Assembly: GCA_017399965.1 (NCBI GenBank)
Contig: JAFQAP010000019.1
Span: 543 to 64,542, forward strand
Reading direction: 5' to 3'
Length of the DNA stretch: 64,000 nucleotides
From: Clostridia bacterium
GTDB taxonomy: Bacteria; Bacillota; Clostridia; Oscillospirales; CAG-382
The translations under genes and the position numbers were made by a program. Below, one piece after another: positions 9,096 through 32,621 of this stretch. Each line of letters opens with the position of its first letter. Within the stretch, counting starts at the first letter, position 1. The notes under the pieces are model-generated. The model did no database searches and was not told the origin of the DNA. It saw only the letters and a program-made list of their open reading frames with translations.

Positions 9096-9229
9096 ATGTA
9101 ACCTCCGTTATCGCCAGTTTCGCCTTTGTATTACAAAGGGATAGGGCATAGCCCATACCCCTACAATACCGAATATATTATATCATAGATTAGCAGAGAA
9201 AGCAAGAGTTATATTCCGATTTCGTCGGA

Positions 9230-9376
9230 GTGATATGATCGCGTGTGCGATCGTGATATGGAAGCCTTACGGCTTCAGTGATATTTTATTCGCCTCCAAA
9301 CTCGCGTAGCAAATACCACTCGGCGATAGCCGAATATCACTGCGAAACAATAGAACTCGCCGCAGGCGAATAAAAC
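9230..9376. repeat. dyad-symmetric heptamer plus mini-hairpin array (block A, motif GTGATAT)
   Basis: GTGATAT at 9230, 9253 and 9278, with inverted ATATCAC at 9334 (variant ATACCAC at 9314). The intervals are hairpins GATCGC-GTGT-GCGATC, GAAGCC-TTAC-GGCTTC, TCGGC-GATA-GCCGA and TCGCC-GCA-GGCGA. Confidence 0.75.
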
Positions 9377-9378
9377 TG

Positions 9379-9405
9379 CCCAACTTCCTTATGAGAAGTT
9401 GGGCA
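9379..9405 (-). terminator. terminator of the DUF975 gene
   Basis: GCCCAACTTC-loop-GAAGTTGGGC hairpin, followed by a T-rich tract on the minus strand. Confidence 0.55.
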
Positions 9406-26307: not shown

Positions 26308-27270
26308 ATGAAAATGATAAAAGGCACTTGGTTTGAATTCAGACATCATAACGTCAAAGAAGGTGATTACTGGAATCCCGTTTGCCGTAAATTTACGGAA
26401 GAGCAGTGGCGGGCAAAAATAAAGGAAATGCATGATATCGGTATGGAATACCTTGTGCTTTTGTGTTCCTCTCTTGTATATACGGATTATGCGGAAGCAT
26501 ATTTTGAAACTGATATTTATCCGTTCCCCGAAGATATGGTGTGCAAGGATCCTATTGCCGTTCTTTTGGACGAATGCGATAAACGGGATATGAAGGTATT
26601 TATGTCCTGCGGGTACTACGGACCCTGCACCAACGCATATAAGAATATGGTTTCGCCCGAAGTTACAGCCCTCGCCTTTAAAGCAATGAAGCAGCTGTGG
26701 GAAAAATTCGGTTTTCACAAAAGCTTTTACGGCTGGTATTATCCCGATGAAACGGGAGCAGACGGATATTTCCACGAAGATTTTATTTCCTACGTAAACA
26801 CATACGGAGCTTATATTCGCAAAATTGCTCCCTGCACAAAAACTCTCATCGCCCCTTACGGTACGCGGAAGATAATTGCGGACGAAAAATATATAGACCA
26901 GCTTAAAGCCTTGGACGTGGATTTCATAGCGTATCAGGACGAGGTTGGCGTACGCAAATCCACTCCCGAGGAAACGGGAGCATACTTTAAATCGCTCCGC
27001 GAAGCCCACGATAAAGCGGGGAAAAGCGCTCTTTGGGCAGACGTAGAGCTGTTCGATTTCGAAGGGGAAGTATACCGAAGCCCGCTTATCCCTTCGGATA
27101 TGGATAGGGTGGAAAAGCAGCTGAAAGCCGTTTCCCCTTATGTTGACGTTATACTTTGTTATCAATATTTGGGTATGCTTAACGAGCCTTCAACCATCGC
27201 ATATTGCGGACATCCAGATTCCTTGAAGTTTTACGAGGATCTCAAGGTCTTTAAAGAGAAATACGAATAA
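26308..27270 (+). CDS. DUF4434-like (glycoside-hydrolase-like TIM barrel) protein, paralog 1
   Basis: 320 aa. The N-terminal pattern GTWFEF.HHN...YWN....F.EEQW...I.EMH.IGMEYLVL resembles the DUF4434 signature. Family call is by memory only. Confidence 0.5.
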   Translation: MKMIKGTWFEFRHHNVKEGDYWNPVCRKFTEEQWRAKIKEMHDIGMEYLVLLCSSLVYTDYAEAYFETDIYPFPEDMVCKDPIAVLLDECDKRDMKVFMSCGYYGPCTNAYKNMVSPEVTALAFKAMKQLWEKFGFHKSFYGWYYPDETGADGYFHEDFISYVNTYGAYIRKIAPCTKTLIAPYGTRKIIADEKYIDQLKALDVDFIAYQDEVGVRKSTPEETGAYFKSLREAHDKAGKSALWADVELFDFEGEVYRSPLIPSDMDRVEKQLKAVSPYVDVILCYQYLGMLNEPSTIAYCGHPDSLKFYEDLKVFKEKYE

Positions 27271-27361: not shown

Positions 27362-28336
27362 ATGAAAACAATTAAAGGCACTTGGTTTGAATTCAAGCAT
27401 CATAATATACCTGAAGGAAAGTATTGGAACCCTATCTGCCGTAAGTTTACGGACGAACAGTGGCGCGCAAAGGTAAGAGAAATGCACCATATGGGTATGG
27501 AATACGTTGTACTTATGTGCTCATCTCTCGTTTATGAGGACAGCGCAGAGGCATATTTTAATACCGATATTTATCCGTTCCCCGAAGATATGGTCTGCAA
27601 GGATCCTATCGGCGTCCTTCTTGACGAATGCGATAAATGCGGTATGAAGGTATTCGTTTCCTGCGGCTTCTACGGCGTATGGACTCATACCTATGATAAT
27701 ATGACCTCTCCCGAAGTAACCGCACGTGCTTTCAAGGCAATGGATGAGCTTTGGGCGCAGTACGGAAACCACAAGAGCTTCTTCGGCTGGTATTTCCCCG
27801 ATGAAACCTGCATAAACGGTCATTTCCTTGAAGAGTTTATTACATACGTAAACGCATACAGCGCTCACGCACATAAAATCTCTCCCAATGCAAAGACTAT
27901 GATTGCTCCTTACGGCACCAACATTCTGGTTGCAGACGAGCAGTATGTGGATCAGCTCAAGCGTATGGATGTTGATATCGTTGCATATCAGGACGAGATC
28001 GGTGTACGCAAGTCCACACCCGAACAGACCGGCGCATATTACAAGGCTCTCCGTGCCGCACACGATGCAGCAGGCAGAAGCGCGCTCTGGGCAGATATGG
28101 AAGTATTTGAATTTGAAGCAGACGTATACCGCAGCGCACTTATCCCCGCCGCTATGGAGCGTGTGGAAAGACAGCTTGAGGCTATCTCTCCCTACGTTGA
28201 CGTTGTGCTTTGCTATCAGTATCTGGGTATGTTCAACGAACCCTCTACCATCGCATACTGCGGACATCCCGAATCTATAAGATATTTTGAAGAATATCAG
28301 GCATTCAGAAAGAAGTATGAAAATAATGAAGACTAA
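27362..28336 (+). CDS. DUF4434-like protein, paralog 2
   Basis: 324 aa, colinear with the 26308-27270 product. Roughly two thirds or more of residues are identical by eye. Confidence 0.5.
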   Translation: MKTIKGTWFEFKHHNIPEGKYWNPICRKFTDEQWRAKVREMHHMGMEYVVLMCSSLVYEDSAEAYFNTDIYPFPEDMVCKDPIGVLLDECDKCGMKVFVSCGFYGVWTHTYDNMTSPEVTARAFKAMDELWAQYGNHKSFFGWYFPDETCINGHFLEEFITYVNAYSAHAHKISPNAKTMIAPYGTNILVADEQYVDQLKRMDVDIVAYQDEIGVRKSTPEQTGAYYKALRAAHDAAGRSALWADMEVFEFEADVYRSALIPAAMERVERQLEAISPYVDVVLCYQYLGMFNEPSTIAYCGHPESIRYFEEYQAFRKKYENNED

Positions 28337-29336
28337 AATATTTGCACTCCTCCTTGCCGCGGTCATTCTGCTTTCGGCATGTGTTTCCGGCGGCGGTGAG
28401 GAAAGCAGTACTCCCGATAATTCGGTTCCTCCCGTTGAAAACAGCGCTCCCGTGGGCGAAAACAGTACTCCTGCAGAAAACAGTAACCCTGCAGAAAACA
28501 GTAACCCTGCAGAAACCAGCACTCCCGCAGGTGAGACAAGTAATCCCGCGGAAACCAGCAAGCCCGAAGAAAGCAAGCCCGAAGAAAGCAAGCCTGAGGA
28601 AAGCAAGCCCCAGGAAGAAAGCCGTCCCGAAAACAACAGCGGCATTTACTCCGGTCAGAGTATGGATACCCACGGTATGGACAGAAAGGAACTGGAGGAT
28701 TTTCTGGAAGATTCTCTGTTCGTCGGCGATTCCGTAACCGATGGCTTTAAGCTTTACGTAAACAACTACGGCAATATGCCTTACGTAAACTTTTTCTCTG
28801 CAGCTTCTTACGGCTATATCAACGCTTGTAAGGACAAAGCCACTTCCTCTTTGCACCCCAAGATAGGCGGTGAACGCAAATATATCTGGGAAGCGGTTGA
28901 ATATTACGAAGCAAAGCGTGTGTTTATCAATTTCGGGCTTAACGATTTCGGCTATATAACCGATACCAAGCTTGTCGAGTGTATGGACACCATCTGCAAC
29001 AATATAAAGGAAGTTTCTCCCGAAACAGAGATAGTATTCCTTTCCTGCGGCTTCTTTACCAAGAGCGCCAGGGATCAGGGCAAGGGCGTGGATAACGACC
29101 GTGTCCGCAACAAAAACGAAGTGGTATTGAACTACTGCGATGAAAACGGATACGATTTTATCGACGTTTCCTGGGTATATGCAGATGCAAACGGATATCT
29201 TAAGAGCGAGTATTCTTACGATAACTATTGCCATATGAAGTATGATAAATACGATTTCTGGGAAGAGATCCTTATGGCGTATGCCGCAGATAAACTGCTT
29301 AACCAGTACGAAAATATCGACACGATGTTAAAATGA
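28317..29336 (+). CDS. lipoprotein with low-complexity P/E/S/N linker and SGNH-type esterase domain
   Basis: Lipobox LLSAC after MKIMKTKIFALLLAAVI (start at 28317 or 28326). The linker reads ...ENSNPAENSNPAETS...KPEESKPEESKPEESKP. The SGNH block is FVGDSVTDG. It overlaps the end of the upstream gene. Confidence 0.6.
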   Translation: MKIMKTKIFALLLAAVILLSACVSGGGEESSTPDNSVPPVENSAPVGENSTPAENSNPAENSNPAETSTPAGETSNPAETSKPEESKPEESKPEESKPQEESRPENNSGIYSGQSMDTHGMDRKELEDFLEDSLFVGDSVTDGFKLYVNNYGNMPYVNFFSAASYGYINACKDKATSSLHPKIGGERKYIWEAVEYYEAKRVFINFGLNDFGYITDTKLVECMDTICNNIKEVSPETEIVFLSCGFFTKSARDQGKGVDNDRVRNKNEVVLNYCDENGYDFIDVSWVYADANGYLKSEYSYDNYCHMKYDKYDFWEEILMAYAADKLLNQYENIDTMLK

Positions 29337-30911: not shown

Positions 30912-30913
30912 CG

Positions 30914-31080
30914 GTGAAGTTTGGGCTTGTGCCCAAGTGAAGTTATGCTGTGCATAGTGAAGTTTTGTGCTGTCGCACAAAGTGAAGTTAAGTTTGCCGC
31001 TTCGCCGTAAGGCGAAACTTCACTGCCGCAGGCAACTTCACTGCCATAGGCAACTTCACTTGTCCGTAAGGGCAAACTTA
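30914..31080. repeat. dyad-symmetric octamer plus mini-hairpin array (block B, motif GTGAAGTT)
   Basis: GTGAAGTT at 30914, 30937, 30957 and 30982. Inverted AACTTCAC at 31016, 31034 and 31052, with a degenerate copy near 31076. Every interval is a different small hairpin. Confidence 0.8.
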
Positions 31081-31086
31081 GTTCCG

Positions 31087-31155: not shown

Positions 31156-31224
31156 TGCACCCCCTTTTGAGGTTAGGGGGTGCAAAGTCATTTTAGGGGG
31201 TGCATATTTGAGTCAGGGGGTGCA
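31156..31224. repeat. AGGGGGTGCA direct repeats x3 at exact 20-nt period, plus one inverted copy
   Basis: AGGGGGTGCA at 31175, 31195 and 31215. The reverse complement TGCACCCCCT is at 31156-31165. Confidence 0.85.
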
Positions 31225-31231
31225 ACCGCAC

Positions 31232-31945
31232 TTAATCACCCATCGGTTTAAAAACTGGCGCTCCATTTTCGACAACTACTGAGCCAATAACACCCGTTGC
31301 AGTATAAGACAAATCTGCAAGGTTATCGCCGTTGACTTCTATGTTTGCGCTGTAGACTTGATAATAAATGGGAAGGTCTTGGGGATCTTTTGACGAAAAC
31401 GAGGGCGAAACAGCCGCTACAAACAGATCTACTGAAGGATTGTCGGTAGTTGAAGTATCATAAATAACAATGGATTCCTTTGTGGTTGTATTAAAAACGG
31501 ATATTATAGAACGGTGTAATCCCGAACCCCATGAAGAAGCAACCAATAAATCGAGATTCCCATTTTCGTCATAATCCCAAGGTACGGCATTTACAAAACC
31601 GTAGCCACCAAAGGACTCACAAATAGAATATACCTCACCATCAATTAGTGCAAGCGAGATGCAGGAATCGCTGAACTTAAAAATCTTGATATCTGTCTGG
31701 GCGGCAACAGAAAGCGGGGTGACATTGTAGCAATGTTCCTTATCAAGCGTCATTCCGGTAGACAAACCACCCAATTCCACCTCGCCAATAATTGACATAA
31801 ATTCATCTACGGAATCCTTAGTGCATGATGTAGTCATATAGTCGACATTGCTTTCGTTTTTATCTGAATTATCGGTGTTTGTTTGACAAGCCGTCAAAGA
31901 AATCAATACAATTCCTGTTAGAAGCAAGCAGAATAGGCGTTTCAT
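31232..31945 (-). CDS. hypothetical lipoprotein (FG-GAP/VCBS-like beta-propeller flavour)
   Basis: Start at Met15 of the ORF (MKRLFCLLLTGIVLISLTAC, lipobox). WDYDENGNLDLLVASSWGSG resembles an FG-GAP repeat. Family not firmly recognised. Confidence 0.5.
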   Translation of the reverse strand: MKRLFCLLLTGIVLISLTACQTNTDNSDKNESNVDYMTTSCTKDSVDEFMSIIGEVELGGLSTGMTLDKEHCYNVTPLSVAAQTDIKIFKFSDSCISLALIDGEVYSICESFGGYGFVNAVPWDYDENGNLDLLVASSWGSGLHRSIISVFNTTTKESIVIYDTSTTDNPSVDLFVAAVSPSFSSKDPQDLPIYYQVYSANIEVNGDNLADLSYTATGVIGSVVVENGAPVFKPMGD

Positions 31946-32010: not shown

Positions 32011-32098
32011 TTAACGATTATCGGCTACAATTTAACGATTGCCTCTATAAATCAACGATTATTGTTATGATTTAACGATTATCTGTCTTTTAACGATT
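32011..32098. repeat. five direct TTAACGATT repeats at 18-21 nt period, upstream of the lipoprotein gene
   Basis: TTAACGATT at 32011, 32032, 32072 and 32090, with TCAACGATT at 32052. Confidence 0.85.
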
Positions 32099-32106
32099 TG
32101 AAGTGA

Positions 32107-32284
32107 GTGAAATATTTGCCTTGCGGCAAATGTGAAATAATTTACTCCGTAAATTGTGAAATTTGATGCTTTCGCATCAAGTGAAATGAAATAAATCCTC
32201 TCACGCCCGCAGGCATTTCACATTGCGAAGCAATATTTCACACGCGAAGCGTATTTCACAAATCCCGCAAGGGATTTATTTCGT
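32107..32284. repeat. dyad-symmetric heptamer plus mini-hairpin array (block C, motif GTGAAAT)
   Basis: GTGAAAT at 32107, 32132, 32156 and 32181. Inverted ATTTCAC at 32215, 32235 and 32253, with ATTTCGT at 32278. The intervals are distinct hairpins. Confidence 0.85.
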
Positions 32285-32286
32285 TG

Positions 32287-32325
32287 AAAAAGACCTATGC
32301 TTTGTATCAAAGCATAGGTCTTTTT
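32287..32325 (-). terminator. terminator immediately 3-prime of tRNA-Ser(GGA) (bidirectional hairpin)
   Basis: AAAAAGACCTATGCTTT-GTA-TCAAAGCATAGGTCTTTTT is a long perfect stem with A/T runs on both sides. Confidence 0.75.
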
Positions 32326-32326
32326 C

Positions 32327-32418
32327 TGGCGGAAAGAGAGGGATTCGAACCCTCGGAACGGTATTAGCGTTCACACGATTTCCAGTCGTGCGCCTTAGAC
32401 CAGCTCAGCCATCTTTCC
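32327..32418 (-). tRNA. tRNA-Ser (anticodon GGA), class II, CCA encoded
   Basis: Minus-strand read begins GGAAAGATGGCTGAGCTGGTCTAAGGCGCACGACTGGAAATCGTGTGAACGCTAATACCGTTCC and ends GAGGGTTCGAATCCCTCTCTTTCCGCCA. Acceptor GGAAAGA/TCTTTCC, anticodon stem CACGA/TCGTG with loop CTGGAAA, variable arm GAACG/CGTTC. Confidence 0.9.
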
Positions 32419-32621
32419 ATATTAAGTTCAAGCGGTTTCCGCTCGTGCTTTGCAATTATATCACACCTGACAGCGCTTGTCAACAGTTATTTTTCTTATT
32501 TTTAAATATATATTCACATAAATTTTGCCGGAAAATCAAAAACGCTCTTGATTTTTTGCGTTATTTATTTTATAATGTATTCAGCAAAACTTGAAGTTTT
32601 GAGAAAGAAAAGGAGAAAATT

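What the first reader, a model, noticed from the sequence alone, without database searches (positions are those of the whole stretch)
32107..32284. Dyad-symmetric array of a constant heptamer (GTGAAAT / ATTTCAC) separated by variable mini-hairpins (block C)
Four direct GTGAAAT copies (32107, 32132, 32156, 32181; period 24-25 nt) are followed by four inverted copies. These are ATTTCAC at 32215, 32235 and 32253, and ATTTCGT at 32278. Every interval between motifs has a different sequence but is always self-complementary. The hairpins are ATTTGCC-TTGC-GGCAAAT, AATTTAC-TCC-GTAAATT, TTGATGC-TTTC-GCATCAA, GCC-CGCA-GGC, ATTGC-GAA-GCAAT, ACGC-GAA-GCGT and AAATCCC-GCAA-GGGATTT. Read outward from the centre near 32200, each half gives the same unit on its own strand. 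That unit is a variable stem, a 3-4 nt loop that is often GNRA-type (GCAA, GAAA) or GAA/GCA, and then ATTTCAC. A constant short motif with variable but always palindromic spacers means structure is conserved, not sequence. This is not a CRISPR, a REP pair or a simple tandem repeat. Two more blocks with the same architecture but a slightly different core motif are in this window (30914-31080 and 9230-9376). I know of no described element class that matches. Possible roles are a protein-binding array, stable RNA hairpin arrays at gene ends, or footprints of a hairpin-templated mobile or repair process.
Basis: seen in the sequence. Interest (0 to 1): 0.75.

Follow-up and report, generated by a model that had tools for sequence, protein, structure and literature searches.

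The report
Gut-1 hairpin-array element behind tRNA-Ser
The repeated heptamers separated by small hairpins are real, but they belong to a catalogued orphan family, the Rfam Gut-1 RNA motif; the new result is that these elements sit behind stable-RNA genes and next to genes for a small ring-forming protein of unknown function, which makes both directly testable.

Summary
Block C has eight heptamers and seven perfect mini-hairpins, and blocks B and A have the same build.

The claim that no described class matches is wrong. Each half of each block matches Rfam RF01706, the Gut-1 RNA. In block C the scores are 79.1 and 50.3 bits against a threshold of 50. The only paper says just that Gut-1 occurs in human gut sequences.

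Comparison with about 47 related elements shows one conserved, asymmetric element of about 190 nt:
- a terminator hairpin;
- an arm with short hairpins, closed by an 11-bp long-range helix that covaries;
- an arm with 17-18-nt hairpins.

About half of the elements lie directly downstream of a tRNA, tmRNA or RNase P RNA gene, always on the same strand. Here that gene is tRNA-Ser(GGA).

All six sampled genes for PF05635 four-helix-bundle proteins from two clades, plus eight met by chance, have such an array 17-100 nt upstream.

My best guess, inferred and untested, is that the folded hairpins present the heptamers as a multivalent binding site for this pentameric protein. Rival readings are a stand-alone trailer RNA, a selfish REP-like repeat, and a backstop terminator.

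This locus is a new member of a known but uncharacterised kind.

The parts
32107..32187 (-). Long-hairpin ('weak') arm. On the minus strand (the tRNA-sense strand) it reads as four ATTTCAC linkers separated by three 17-18-nt hairpins: TTGATGC-GAAA-GCATCAA, AATTTAC-GGA-GTAAATT and ATTTGCC-GCAA-GGCAAAT.
   Evidence: Rfam Gut-1 scores 50.3 bits on the + strand. The equivalent hairpins in 36 aligned elements are 82-92% paired, with two-sided changes at every pair.
32188..32204 (-). Centre. GAAATAAATCC (32188-32198 on the + strand) is one strand of the long-range helix P1. Its partner is 32272-32282.
   Evidence: In the P1 columns, 97.7% of cells are paired and 10 of 11 pairs change on both sides. 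Own-partner complementarity is 10.4 of 11, against 7.1 for partners from other elements.
32205..32214 (-). Central short hairpin hp4, GCC-CGCA-GGC. GCCTGCGGGC on the tRNA-sense strand is conserved in many elements.
32215..32286 (-). Short-hairpin ('strong') arm, which is the Rfam Gut-1 match. On the minus strand it reads CAACGAAAT, hp1 (AAATCCC-TTGC-GGGATTT), GTGAAAT, ACGC-TTC-GCGT, GTGAAAT, ATTGC-TTC-GCAAT, GTGAAAT.
   Evidence: Rfam RF01706 scores 79.1 bits against a threshold of 50, E = 3e-14, at 32210-32286 on the minus strand.
32287..32325 (.). hp0: a two-way intrinsic-terminator-like hairpin (A-run, 13-bp stem, T-run) lying between the tRNA gene and the element.
   Evidence: A hairpin ending in TTTTT directly abuts (C)AACGAAAT in most related elements.
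32327..32418 (-). tRNA-Ser(GGA), the upstream stable-RNA gene, on the same strand as the strong arm. It has a perfect TTGACA-17-TATAAT promoter at 32455-32483.
   Evidence: Of 42 related elements, 22 have a tRNA less than 250 nt upstream, and all 22 are on the same strand.
30912..31084 (-). Block B: the same architecture with the heptamer flavour GTGAAGT/ACTTCAC. It lies between the terminators of two convergent genes. Its P1 strands are TAAGTTTGCC and GGCAAACTTA.
   Evidence: (43.4 and 40.7 bits, below threshold). It shows 1 change in 201 nt against L131, where the preceding 400 nt are 82% identical.
9206..9378 (-). Block A: a degenerate copy with the flavour GTGATAT/ATATCAC. Its P1 strands are TTTATTCGCC and GGCGAATAAA. 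Its flanking hairpin hp0 lies at 9377-9405.
   Evidence: (42.5 and 34 bits, below threshold).

Best explanation
Shown:
- Block C is a complete copy of a conserved composite element of about 190 nt. Its short-hairpin arm is the Rfam Gut-1 motif.
- The element folds in single-stranded form into seven perfect mini-hairpins, flush against constant 7-nt linkers. A covarying 11-bp helix (P1) can also close the short-hairpin arm.
- It is parked directly behind the terminator of a stable-RNA gene, here tRNA-Ser(GGA), in a fixed orientation.
- Its family is an interspersed repeat of gut Oscillospirales-type Clostridia and Akkermansiaceae.

Inferred mechanism:
- The hairpins act as spacers that display the linkers (ATTTCAC on one strand, GTGAAAT on the other) as a multivalent, regularly spaced binding platform.
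- The partner would be a homopentameric PF05635 four-helix-bundle protein (the 23S-rRNA-IVS / Avd-like family), encoded next to some copies and acting in trans on the others.
- Copies such as block C would then be orphan binding arrays.

Open: whether the bound form is RNA (read-through from the tRNA gene) or extruded or single-stranded DNA, and what the complex does.
For: Identity:
- Rfam RF01706 scores 79.1 and 50.3 bits.
- The same architecture occurs in 46-47 elements.

Structure:
- About 98% of stem pairs are Watson-Crick.
- Hairpins and P1 covary, with 0 of 500 shuffles reaching the observed scores.

Context:
- 22 of 42 elements have a tRNA upstream, all on the same strand and covering at least 15 anticodons.
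- tmRNA lies upstream in L372 and RNase P RNA in L114.

Link to the protein:
- A PF05635/TIGR02436 gene starts 17-60 nt after the last ATTTCAC, on the same strand, in L009, L026, L039, L048, L051, L114 and L238. A remnant is present in L236.
- All six proteins sampled from two homolog searches have an array 50-100 nt upstream, in unrelated gene neighbourhoods. Two of these neighbourhoods have no tRNA.
- The proteins span Clostridia and Akkermansiaceae and are about 50% identical between the two groups.
- Different protein lineages sit next to different linker flavours: GTGAAAT, ATGAAAT/ATTTCAT, ACGAAAT/ATTTCGT and GTTATAT/ATATAAC.
- One homolog (L022) is flanked by contiguous (G/T)AGAAAT heptamers.
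- The Coxiella IVS ORF of this family is preceded by tandem GACAGAT heptamers (PMC4990558).
- The family forms homopentameric rings (PMC4990558). The closest solved structure, 2RLD, has 5 chains (E = 6e-23).
- Avd of diversity-generating retroelements is a homolog of this family (PMC10053308).
Against: - No PF05635 gene lies in this 64-kb window. Only about 10-15% of the arrays I fetched have one adjacent.
- This one genome carries three linker flavours in 64 kb. A single trans-acting protein would have to accept all three.
- The arms have 4 linkers, not 5.
- No binding data exist, and the protein family has no known function.
- Adjacency could reflect a shared preference for the same safe insertion sites. 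It could also simply be an operator for the gene's own promoter.
- The fixed orientation relative to tRNA genes points to a transcription-coupled role that needs no protein partner.
Confidence: 0.35

Rival explanations
1. Selfish interspersed repeat, like REP/BIME or a MITE. The element spreads or is homogenised within genomes and accumulates in neutral safe sites behind terminators. It has no host function. The four-helix-bundle gene would be a passenger or a mobilisation factor.
For: - It is present or absent after the same gene in close relatives: present in L131, absent in L132 and L134.
- Near-identical copies occur at different loci of one genome (L032a/b and L057a/b; L065, L068, L069 and L080).
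- Many contigs break inside arrays, and many homolog contigs are only 0.5-1.5 kb long.
- Block B shows 1 change in 201 nt where the neighbouring DNA is 82% identical.
- The block C type in L120 is 94% identical to block C, but its flank is unrelated.
- Covariation of inverted repeats is also expected if a single protein recognises both ends.
Against: - I could define no target-site duplication and no clean empty site.
- No transposase is linked. The only Y1 transposase seen is an IS inserted into an array.
- Blocks A, B and C of this genome differ strongly from one another.
- Orthologous copies persist at 79% protein identity with compensatory changes, which indicates selection on the fold.
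Confidence: 0.25
2. Stand-alone or trailer non-coding RNA, which is the Rfam view. Read-through from the tRNA gene or another upstream gene yields a structured RNA. It would act on its own, for example as a sponge with repeated single-stranded GUGAAAU/AUUUCAC motifs or as a processing or stability module.
For: - Weinberg 2010 rated it as certainly an RNA on the basis of covariation.
- Its orientation is fixed, on the same strand as the stable-RNA gene.
- The predicted fold is strong: -69.4 kcal/mol with z = -6.75 for the tRNA-sense strand.
- GNRA-type loops and a conserved tandem G.A motif occur in the long-hairpin arm on that strand.
Against: - There is no room for a promoter between the terminator T-run and the element, and no conserved promoter on the other side. 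The element lies behind terminators on one or both sides.
- G.U pairs (9) are no commoner than A.C mismatches (11) among about 1260 stem pairs. This is unusual for an RNA selected on one strand.
- Loop preference flips between the arms. On a single strand the short-hairpin arm has T..C loops 75:1 and the long-hairpin arm has G..A loops 63:1.
Confidence: 0.2
3. Backstop terminator or insulator. RNA polymerase that reads through the main terminator from either side meets a series of hairpins, each followed by AUUUCAC, in the far arm and is paused or released. This would protect neighbouring genes near strongly transcribed stable-RNA genes.
For: - The element sits directly behind terminators, often between convergent ones.
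- tRNA-Ser has a consensus promoter.
- The hairpins have tight loops closed by C-G, as many terminators do.
Against: - The linker has only three U residues, and the stems end in A-U pairs.
- This reading does not explain P1, the two differentiated arms, the matching linker flavour, or the link to the four-helix-bundle gene.
Confidence: 0.08

Closest known systems
Gut-1 RNA motif (Rfam RF01706; Weinberg et al. 2010, Genome Biol 11:R31)
   Same: Four (G)UGAAAU linkers separated by three variable hairpins. It comes from gut organisms. Block C scores above the curated threshold on both arms.
   Different: - The Rfam model covers only one 77-nt arm.
- The paper gives no function, context or pairing.
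- The second arm, helix P1, the flanking terminator hairpin, the stable-RNA-gene context and the neighbouring protein gene are not part of the description.
REP/BIME (REPIN) elements and their RAYT genes in Proteobacteria
   Same: Extragenic, multicopy, hairpin-forming units with a short conserved flank, often in inverted pairs behind genes. A small protein gene is itself flanked by the repeats.
   Different: - REP palindromes are conserved in sequence within a genome. Here the linkers are constant and the palindromes vary.
- The linked protein is a four-helix bundle, not an HUH/Y1 transposase.
23S rRNA intervening sequences that carry an S23p/PF05635 ORF (Coxiella, Leptospira)
   Same: The same protein family is encoded beside a hairpin-forming non-coding element attached to a stable-RNA gene. 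Heptamer repeats lie upstream of the ORF (PMC4990558).
   Different: - An IVS lies inside 23S rRNA helix 25 or 45 and is excised by RNase III.
- Its heptamers are contiguous.
- Here the element lies downstream of tRNA, tmRNA or RNase P RNA genes, and the heptamers are separated by hairpins.
CsrB/RsmZ-type sponge RNAs
   Same: A short motif is repeated between or on many small hairpins to bind several copies of one protein.
   Different: The motif and the protein differ. There is no evidence that Gut-1 has its own promoter or is abundant.
CRISPR arrays
   Same: Constant short units alternate with variable units.
   Different: The constant unit is 7 nt and unstructured. The variable units are 10-18-nt palindromes. 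Each arm has only four units, and no cas genes are present.

Membership tests
Rfam RF01706 Gut-1 | Covariance-model score at or above the curated gathering score of 50 bits | tested here: met
   Block C scores 79.1 bits (minus strand, 32210-32286) and 50.3 bits (plus strand, 32105-32192). Blocks B (43.4 and 40.7) and A (42.5 and 34) fall below the threshold.
Rfam RF01706 Gut-1 | Three hairpins of variable sequence separated by UGAAAU linkers | tested here: met
   Covariation of the hairpins across 36 elements is.
Rfam RF01706 Gut-1 | It functions as an RNA, on the annotated strand | tested here: inconclusive
   For: the orientation is fixed, on the same strand as the upstream tRNA. Against: there is no excess of G.U over A.C (9 vs 11), and the loop bias is opposite in the two arms. 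No expression data were available.
CRISPR | Repeats of 23 nt or more, unique non-palindromic spacers, many units, cas genes | tested here: not met
   The constant units are 7 nt, the spacers are palindromic, and each arm has four units.
REP/BIME (REPIN) | A palindromic unit of conserved sequence, repeated across the genome | tested here: not met
   There are 77 distinct sequences among 113 short-arm hairpins and 118 among 142 long-arm hairpins. All hairpins of blocks A, B and C differ.
REP/BIME (REPIN) | An associated RAYT (Y1 HUH) gene flanked by the repeats | tested here: not met
   The only PF01797 gene found (L400, L401, L010) is an IS inserted in the centre of an array.
MITE | Terminal inverted repeats, a target-site duplication and near-identical copies | tested here: inconclusive
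   Near-identical copies exist in some genomes, and inverted repeats are present. No target-site duplication or clean empty site could be defined.
Intrinsic terminator | A G+C-rich hairpin followed by a U-tract | tested here: not met
   Only the flanking hp0 (32287-32325) fits. The array units are followed by AUUUCAC or GUGAAAU.
23S rRNA intervening sequence | Located inside 23S rRNA helix 25 or 45 | tested here: not met
   There is no rRNA in the window or the loci. The context is the 3' flank of tRNA, tmRNA or RNase P RNA genes.
Integron attC | Inverted core sites (RYYYAAC ... GTTRRRY) bracket each palindrome, with gene cassettes between the sites | tested here: not met
   The heptamers flanking each hairpin are direct repeats, not inverted repeats, and there are no cassettes.

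The most novel reading that the evidence does not exclude
Gut-1-type hairpin arrays and a clade of PF05635 four-helix-bundle proteins (IVS-protein / Avd-like) form a previously unrecognised protein-repeat system. It would be analogous in layout to RAYT-REP. A pentameric ring protein would recognise heptamer linkers presented between hairpins, with protein lineage and linker flavour co-evolving. The system would colonise the 3' flanks of stable-RNA genes (tRNA, tmRNA, RNase P RNA and, in other lineages, 23S rRNA).
Probability: 0.3. Interest if true: 0.8.

Novelty: new member of a known kind. Interest (0 to 1): 0.55.

Why it matters
Gut-1 has been an orphan Rfam family since 2010. PF05635, the '23S rRNA intervening sequence protein' family and a homolog of the retroelement factor Avd, has had no known function for about 30 years.

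This study links the two in 14 independent loci across two phyla. It also links both to the 3' flanks of stable-RNA genes. That gives each orphan a concrete partner, which a simple binding experiment can test.

The study also corrects the picture of Gut-1. It is a two-armed element of about 190 nt with a long-range helix, not a 77-nt three-hairpin RNA. Its near-absence of wobble pairs raises the possibility that it acts as DNA.

Tried and rejected
- **Chance, CRISPR, tandem repeat.** Rejected.
- **Hypervariable hairpins between strains.** Rejected. Block B is almost identical in a relative whose surrounding 4.8 kb is 89% identical, and block C orthologs change by compensatory substitutions.
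- **Loop-loop kissing between hairpins at equivalent positions of the two arms.** Matches are no commoner than in permutations.
- **A conserved promoter upstream of the long-hairpin arm.** No positional signal beyond T-rich positions -5 to -2 and A at -1, directly before GTGAAAT.
- **Choosing the functional strand from wobble pairs.** G.T 9 versus A.C 11, uninformative.
- **A ladder in which GUGAAAU of one arm pairs with AUUUCAC of the other.**
  - For it: RNAfold predicts something ladder-like, and the linker flavours mostly match between arms.
  - For it: one rung, L3:R1, shows two independent A-U to G-C changes.
  - Against it: linker position 1 does not covary, and heterologous partners exist (L008, L097, L401).
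  - Against it: the ladder is topologically incompatible with P1, which is far better supported.
  - Left as unresolved.
- **Phage association.** Only a few true elements occur among 236 viral-contig hits, all in host-like tRNA contexts.
- **Y1 transposase as the mobilising enzyme.** It is an IS inserted into an array.
- **Anti-phage defence annotation of the protein.** No PADLOC hit.
- **Metagenome scan for orthologs of the FAD protein.** It returned only relatives of 52% identity or less, so it was not useful.

Full report
**1. Observation**

The sequence at 32107-32284 is exactly as described.
- There are four GTGAAAT copies, three ATTTCAC copies and one ATTTCGT.
- Each of the seven intervals is a perfect small hairpin with no spare nucleotides next to the heptamers.

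Blocks B (30912-31084, GTGAAGT/ACTTCAC) and A (9206-9378, GTGATAT/ATATCAC) are built the same way.

None of this is expected by chance.
- The pattern of three spaced GTGAAAT copies occurs twice in the window and never in 100 shuffles.
- Spaced 6-mer chains number 42, against 1.3 in shuffles.

**2. Identity**

A scan against Rfam finds RF01706, the Gut-1 RNA.
- The right arm matches on the minus strand at 32210-32286, with 79.1 bits.
- The left arm matches on the plus strand at 32105-32192, with 50.3 bits.
- The curated threshold is 50 bits.
- Both arms of blocks B and A also match, but below threshold at 34-43 bits.

The only paper in the library that mentions the family is Weinberg et al. 2010 (PMC2864571). 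It says only that the motif is detected in human-gut environmental sequences (43 representatives) and rates it as an RNA. It says nothing about function, context or pairing. So the class is described, but hardly characterised.

**3. Relatives and anatomy**

Most came from gut or rumen Clostridia (Eubacteriales, Oscillospiraceae, Ruminococcaceae, Acutalibacteraceae, Christensenellaceae). Some came from Akkermansia and Akkermansiaceae. The window itself comes from an uncultured Ruminococcaceae/Oscillospiraceae-type organism.

Pairing of arms is the main form. Of 86 arrays with full flanks, 57 have two or more inverted heptamers within 160 nt downstream, and only 5 have them upstream. About a third of arrays are solo.

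Parsing 46-47 paired elements shows a conserved but asymmetric element. Read on the strand of the upstream gene, the parts are:
- a terminator-like hairpin (hp0) whose T-run abuts (C)AACGAAAT;
- hairpin hp1;
- three GTGAAAT linkers with short hairpins of 9-13 nt;
- a short central hairpin;
- a segment that repeats the 3' arm of hp1, followed by ATTTC;
- four ATTTCAC linkers with hairpins of 17-18 nt, whose closing pairs are conserved (ATT..AAT, AAT..ATT). The first of these often carries a tandem G.A motif (ATCGA..GAGAT).

Block C fits this element on the window's minus strand. Blocks B and A fit as well.

**4. Structure evidence**

Stems are almost purely Watson-Crick.
- One search counts 1275 Watson-Crick pairs, 6 G.T, 15 A.C and 4 other.
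- One search counts 1235 Watson-Crick pairs, 9 G.T, 11 A.C and 10 other.

On a MAFFT alignment of 36 elements:
- The long-arm hairpins are 82-92% paired, with two-sided changes at every pair.
- The whole structure beats all 500 shuffles and all slid controls.

The long-range helix P1 pairs L0 plus the 5' arm of hp1 with the central segment.
- In the window this pairs 32272-32282 with 32188-32198.
- It is 97.7% paired, and 10 of 11 pairs change on both sides (for example A-U 17, U-A 15, C-G 4).
- Thirteen distinct versions exist. Own partners match 10.4 of 11 positions, against 7.1 for partners from other elements.
- P1 and hp1 are mutually exclusive, so the short-hairpin arm has two alternative folds.
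- Caveat: covariation of inverted repeats is also expected if one protein recognises both copies.

Pairing of GUGAAAU in one arm with AUUUCAC in the other is unresolved.
- For it: it appears in the minimum-free-energy fold (-69.4 kcal/mol, z = -6.75), and linker flavours usually match between arms.
- Against it: variation is sparse, linker position 1 does not covary, heterologous partners exist, and it conflicts topologically with P1.

**5. RNA or DNA, and which strand**

On a single strand, the short-hairpin arm has T..C loops 75:1, while the long-hairpin arm has G..A loops 63:1. About 90% of closing pairs are C-G.

So each arm carries GNA/GNRA-type loops on the strand where its linker reads ATTTCAC. 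From my own knowledge, C-GNA-G triloops such as d(GCGAAGC) are exceptionally stable DNA mini-hairpins, and C-GNRA-G loops are stable in RNA.

Two findings do not fit a simple RNA selected on one strand. The loop bias flips between the arms, and G.U pairs show no excess over A.C. They are compatible with folding of both strands or of DNA.

Against that, the orientation relative to upstream genes is fixed (section 6), which argues for coupling to transcription. I could not resolve this.

**6. Genomic context**

The element lies behind terminators.
- Block C follows tRNA-Ser(GGA), which has a perfect promoter and a two-way terminator.
- Block B lies between the terminators of two convergent genes.
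- No conserved promoter precedes either end of the element.

Stable-RNA genes lie upstream far more often than chance would allow.
- Of 42 paired elements with enough flank, 22 have a tRNA gene less than 250 nt upstream of the short-hairpin arm. All 22 are on the same strand. The count is 23 if L104 is included; my script mis-oriented it, and Rfam gives the correct orientation.
- At least 15 anticodons are represented.
- The upstream gene is tmRNA in L372 and RNase P RNA in L114.
- The remaining elements follow protein-gene terminators.

**7. Population behaviour**

After the same FAD-protein gene:
- A relative with 92% identical protein (L131) has block B with 1 change in 201 nt, a GTAA to GCAA loop change. 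The preceding 400 nt are 82% identical, and the whole 4.8 kb is 89% identical.
- Relatives at 91% and 77% protein identity lack the block.
- A relative at 79% has the tRNA-Ser plus block C ortholog, with compensatory stem changes.

Elsewhere:
- L120 carries a block C type that is 94% identical but has an unrelated flank.
- Near-identical copies occur within single genomes, and contigs often break inside arrays.

The family therefore behaves as an interspersed repeat that is gained and lost. Retained copies are under selection for the fold.

**8. The protein link**

A 115-129-aa gene starts 17-60 nt after the last ATTTCAC, on the same strand, in L009, L026, L039, L048, L051, L114 and L238. A remnant is present in L236.
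- The gene belongs to PF05635 (23S_rRNA_IVP, E = 6e-25) and TIGR02436 ('four helix bundle protein').
- It usually has its own promoter with an extended -10 element.

As a test, I sampled six such proteins from two homolog searches without regard to context. All six have a heptamer-hairpin array 50-100 nt upstream.
- P0164: smpB, tmRNA, hp0, element, gene.
- P0194: tRNA-Pro upstream.
- P0213: tRNA-Ser(tga) upstream.
- P0251 (Akkermansiaceae): tandem elements on both sides of the gene.
- P0263: tandem elements with the flavour ACGAAAT/ATTTCGT, and no tRNA.
- P0308: two tRNA-Ser genes, then an element with the flavour ATGAAAT/ATTTCAT, then the gene.
- Sources.

Further points:
- Rfam calls Gut-1 above threshold in these arrays.
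- In an Akkermansia locus the gene sits among GTTATAT/ATATAAC arrays.
- In L022 a homolog is flanked by contiguous (G/T)AGAAAT heptamers.
- The Coxiella IVS ORF of this family is preceded by tandem GACAGAT heptamers. The family forms homopentameric rings (PMC4990558).
- The closest solved structure is 2RLD, with 5 chains.
- Avd of diversity-generating retroelements is a homolog (PMC10053308).
- The window holds no such gene.

**9. Interpretation**

Shown:
- membership of the Gut-1 family;
- the full architecture;
- conservation of the fold;
- the stable-RNA-gene context;
- the genetic link to PF05635 genes.

Inferred:
- The hairpins display the linkers as a multivalent platform for the pentameric protein.
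- Copies such as block C are bound in trans.

I give this mechanism about 0.35. The rivals are a selfish REP-like repeat (0.25), an autonomous trailer RNA (0.2) and a backstop terminator (0.08).

**10. Verdict**

The claim of an undescribed class is wrong, because this is a new member of the known Gut-1 family. That family is essentially uncharacterised, and the context found here makes its function, and that of PF05635 proteins, directly testable.

Noticed in passing
window 32013-32100: Five copies of (T)TAACGATT lie at 18-21-nt spacing, with non-palindromic spacers. They sit between block C and the promoter of the lipoprotein gene (31232-31945, minus strand). The last two copies are conserved next to the block C type in L120, and one TAACGATT lies between the element and the four-helix-bundle gene promoter in L039.
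   Followed up: partly
window 31156-31228: Three direct copies of AGGGGGTGCA at 20-nt spacing, plus one inverted copy (TGCACCCCCT), lie just downstream of the lipoprotein gene, beside the terminator of block B. This is another short-period array, and its role is unknown.
   Followed up: no
L131 about 5283 onward (equivalent to window about 31112): Synteny with the window breaks inside the loop of the terminator hairpin that flanks block B. The DNA beyond it encodes DUF6809, HTH_17 (excisionase-like) and a UvrD-type helicase. It may be an integrated mobile element.
   Followed up: no
L378 about 1220-1300: Only the last 17 nt or so of tmRNA precede the terminator, element and four-helix-bundle gene, and unrelated DNA lies upstream. 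This looks like the far end of an island integrated into ssrA.
   Followed up: no
L008 3324-3652; L018 1071-1124; L073 6656-6721; L006 2416-2490: Arrays with the same design (a constant linker plus variable hairpins) but unrelated linkers occur in the same gut genomes. The linkers are ATGATG(C/T), GCTAAAT and (AC)GAGAT. The design is therefore broader than the Rfam Gut-1 model.
   Followed up: partly
L400/L401 2365-2766; L010 7300-7842: An IS200/IS605-type Y1 transposase gene (PF01797), with its own subterminal hairpins, is inserted in the centre of one Akkermansiaceae element.
   Followed up: yes
window 28411-28620: In-frame tandem repeats of 18 and 15 nt lie inside the ORF 28287-29336 (a GDSL-like lipase). 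This is probably a repetitive linker region of the protein.
   Followed up: no
window 26308-27270 and 27362-28336: Two adjacent DUF4434 paralogs are about 74% identical in DNA.
   Followed up: no
L068, L069, L080, L065, L106, L107, L112 (contig ends): One Gut-1 subtype is flanked by an AT-rich hairpin, AAATTATAGTTTA..TAAACTATAATTT, that begins at the TAA stop codon of three different genes. Near-identical copies within one MAG cause contigs to end about 26 nt after the array.
   Followed up: partly
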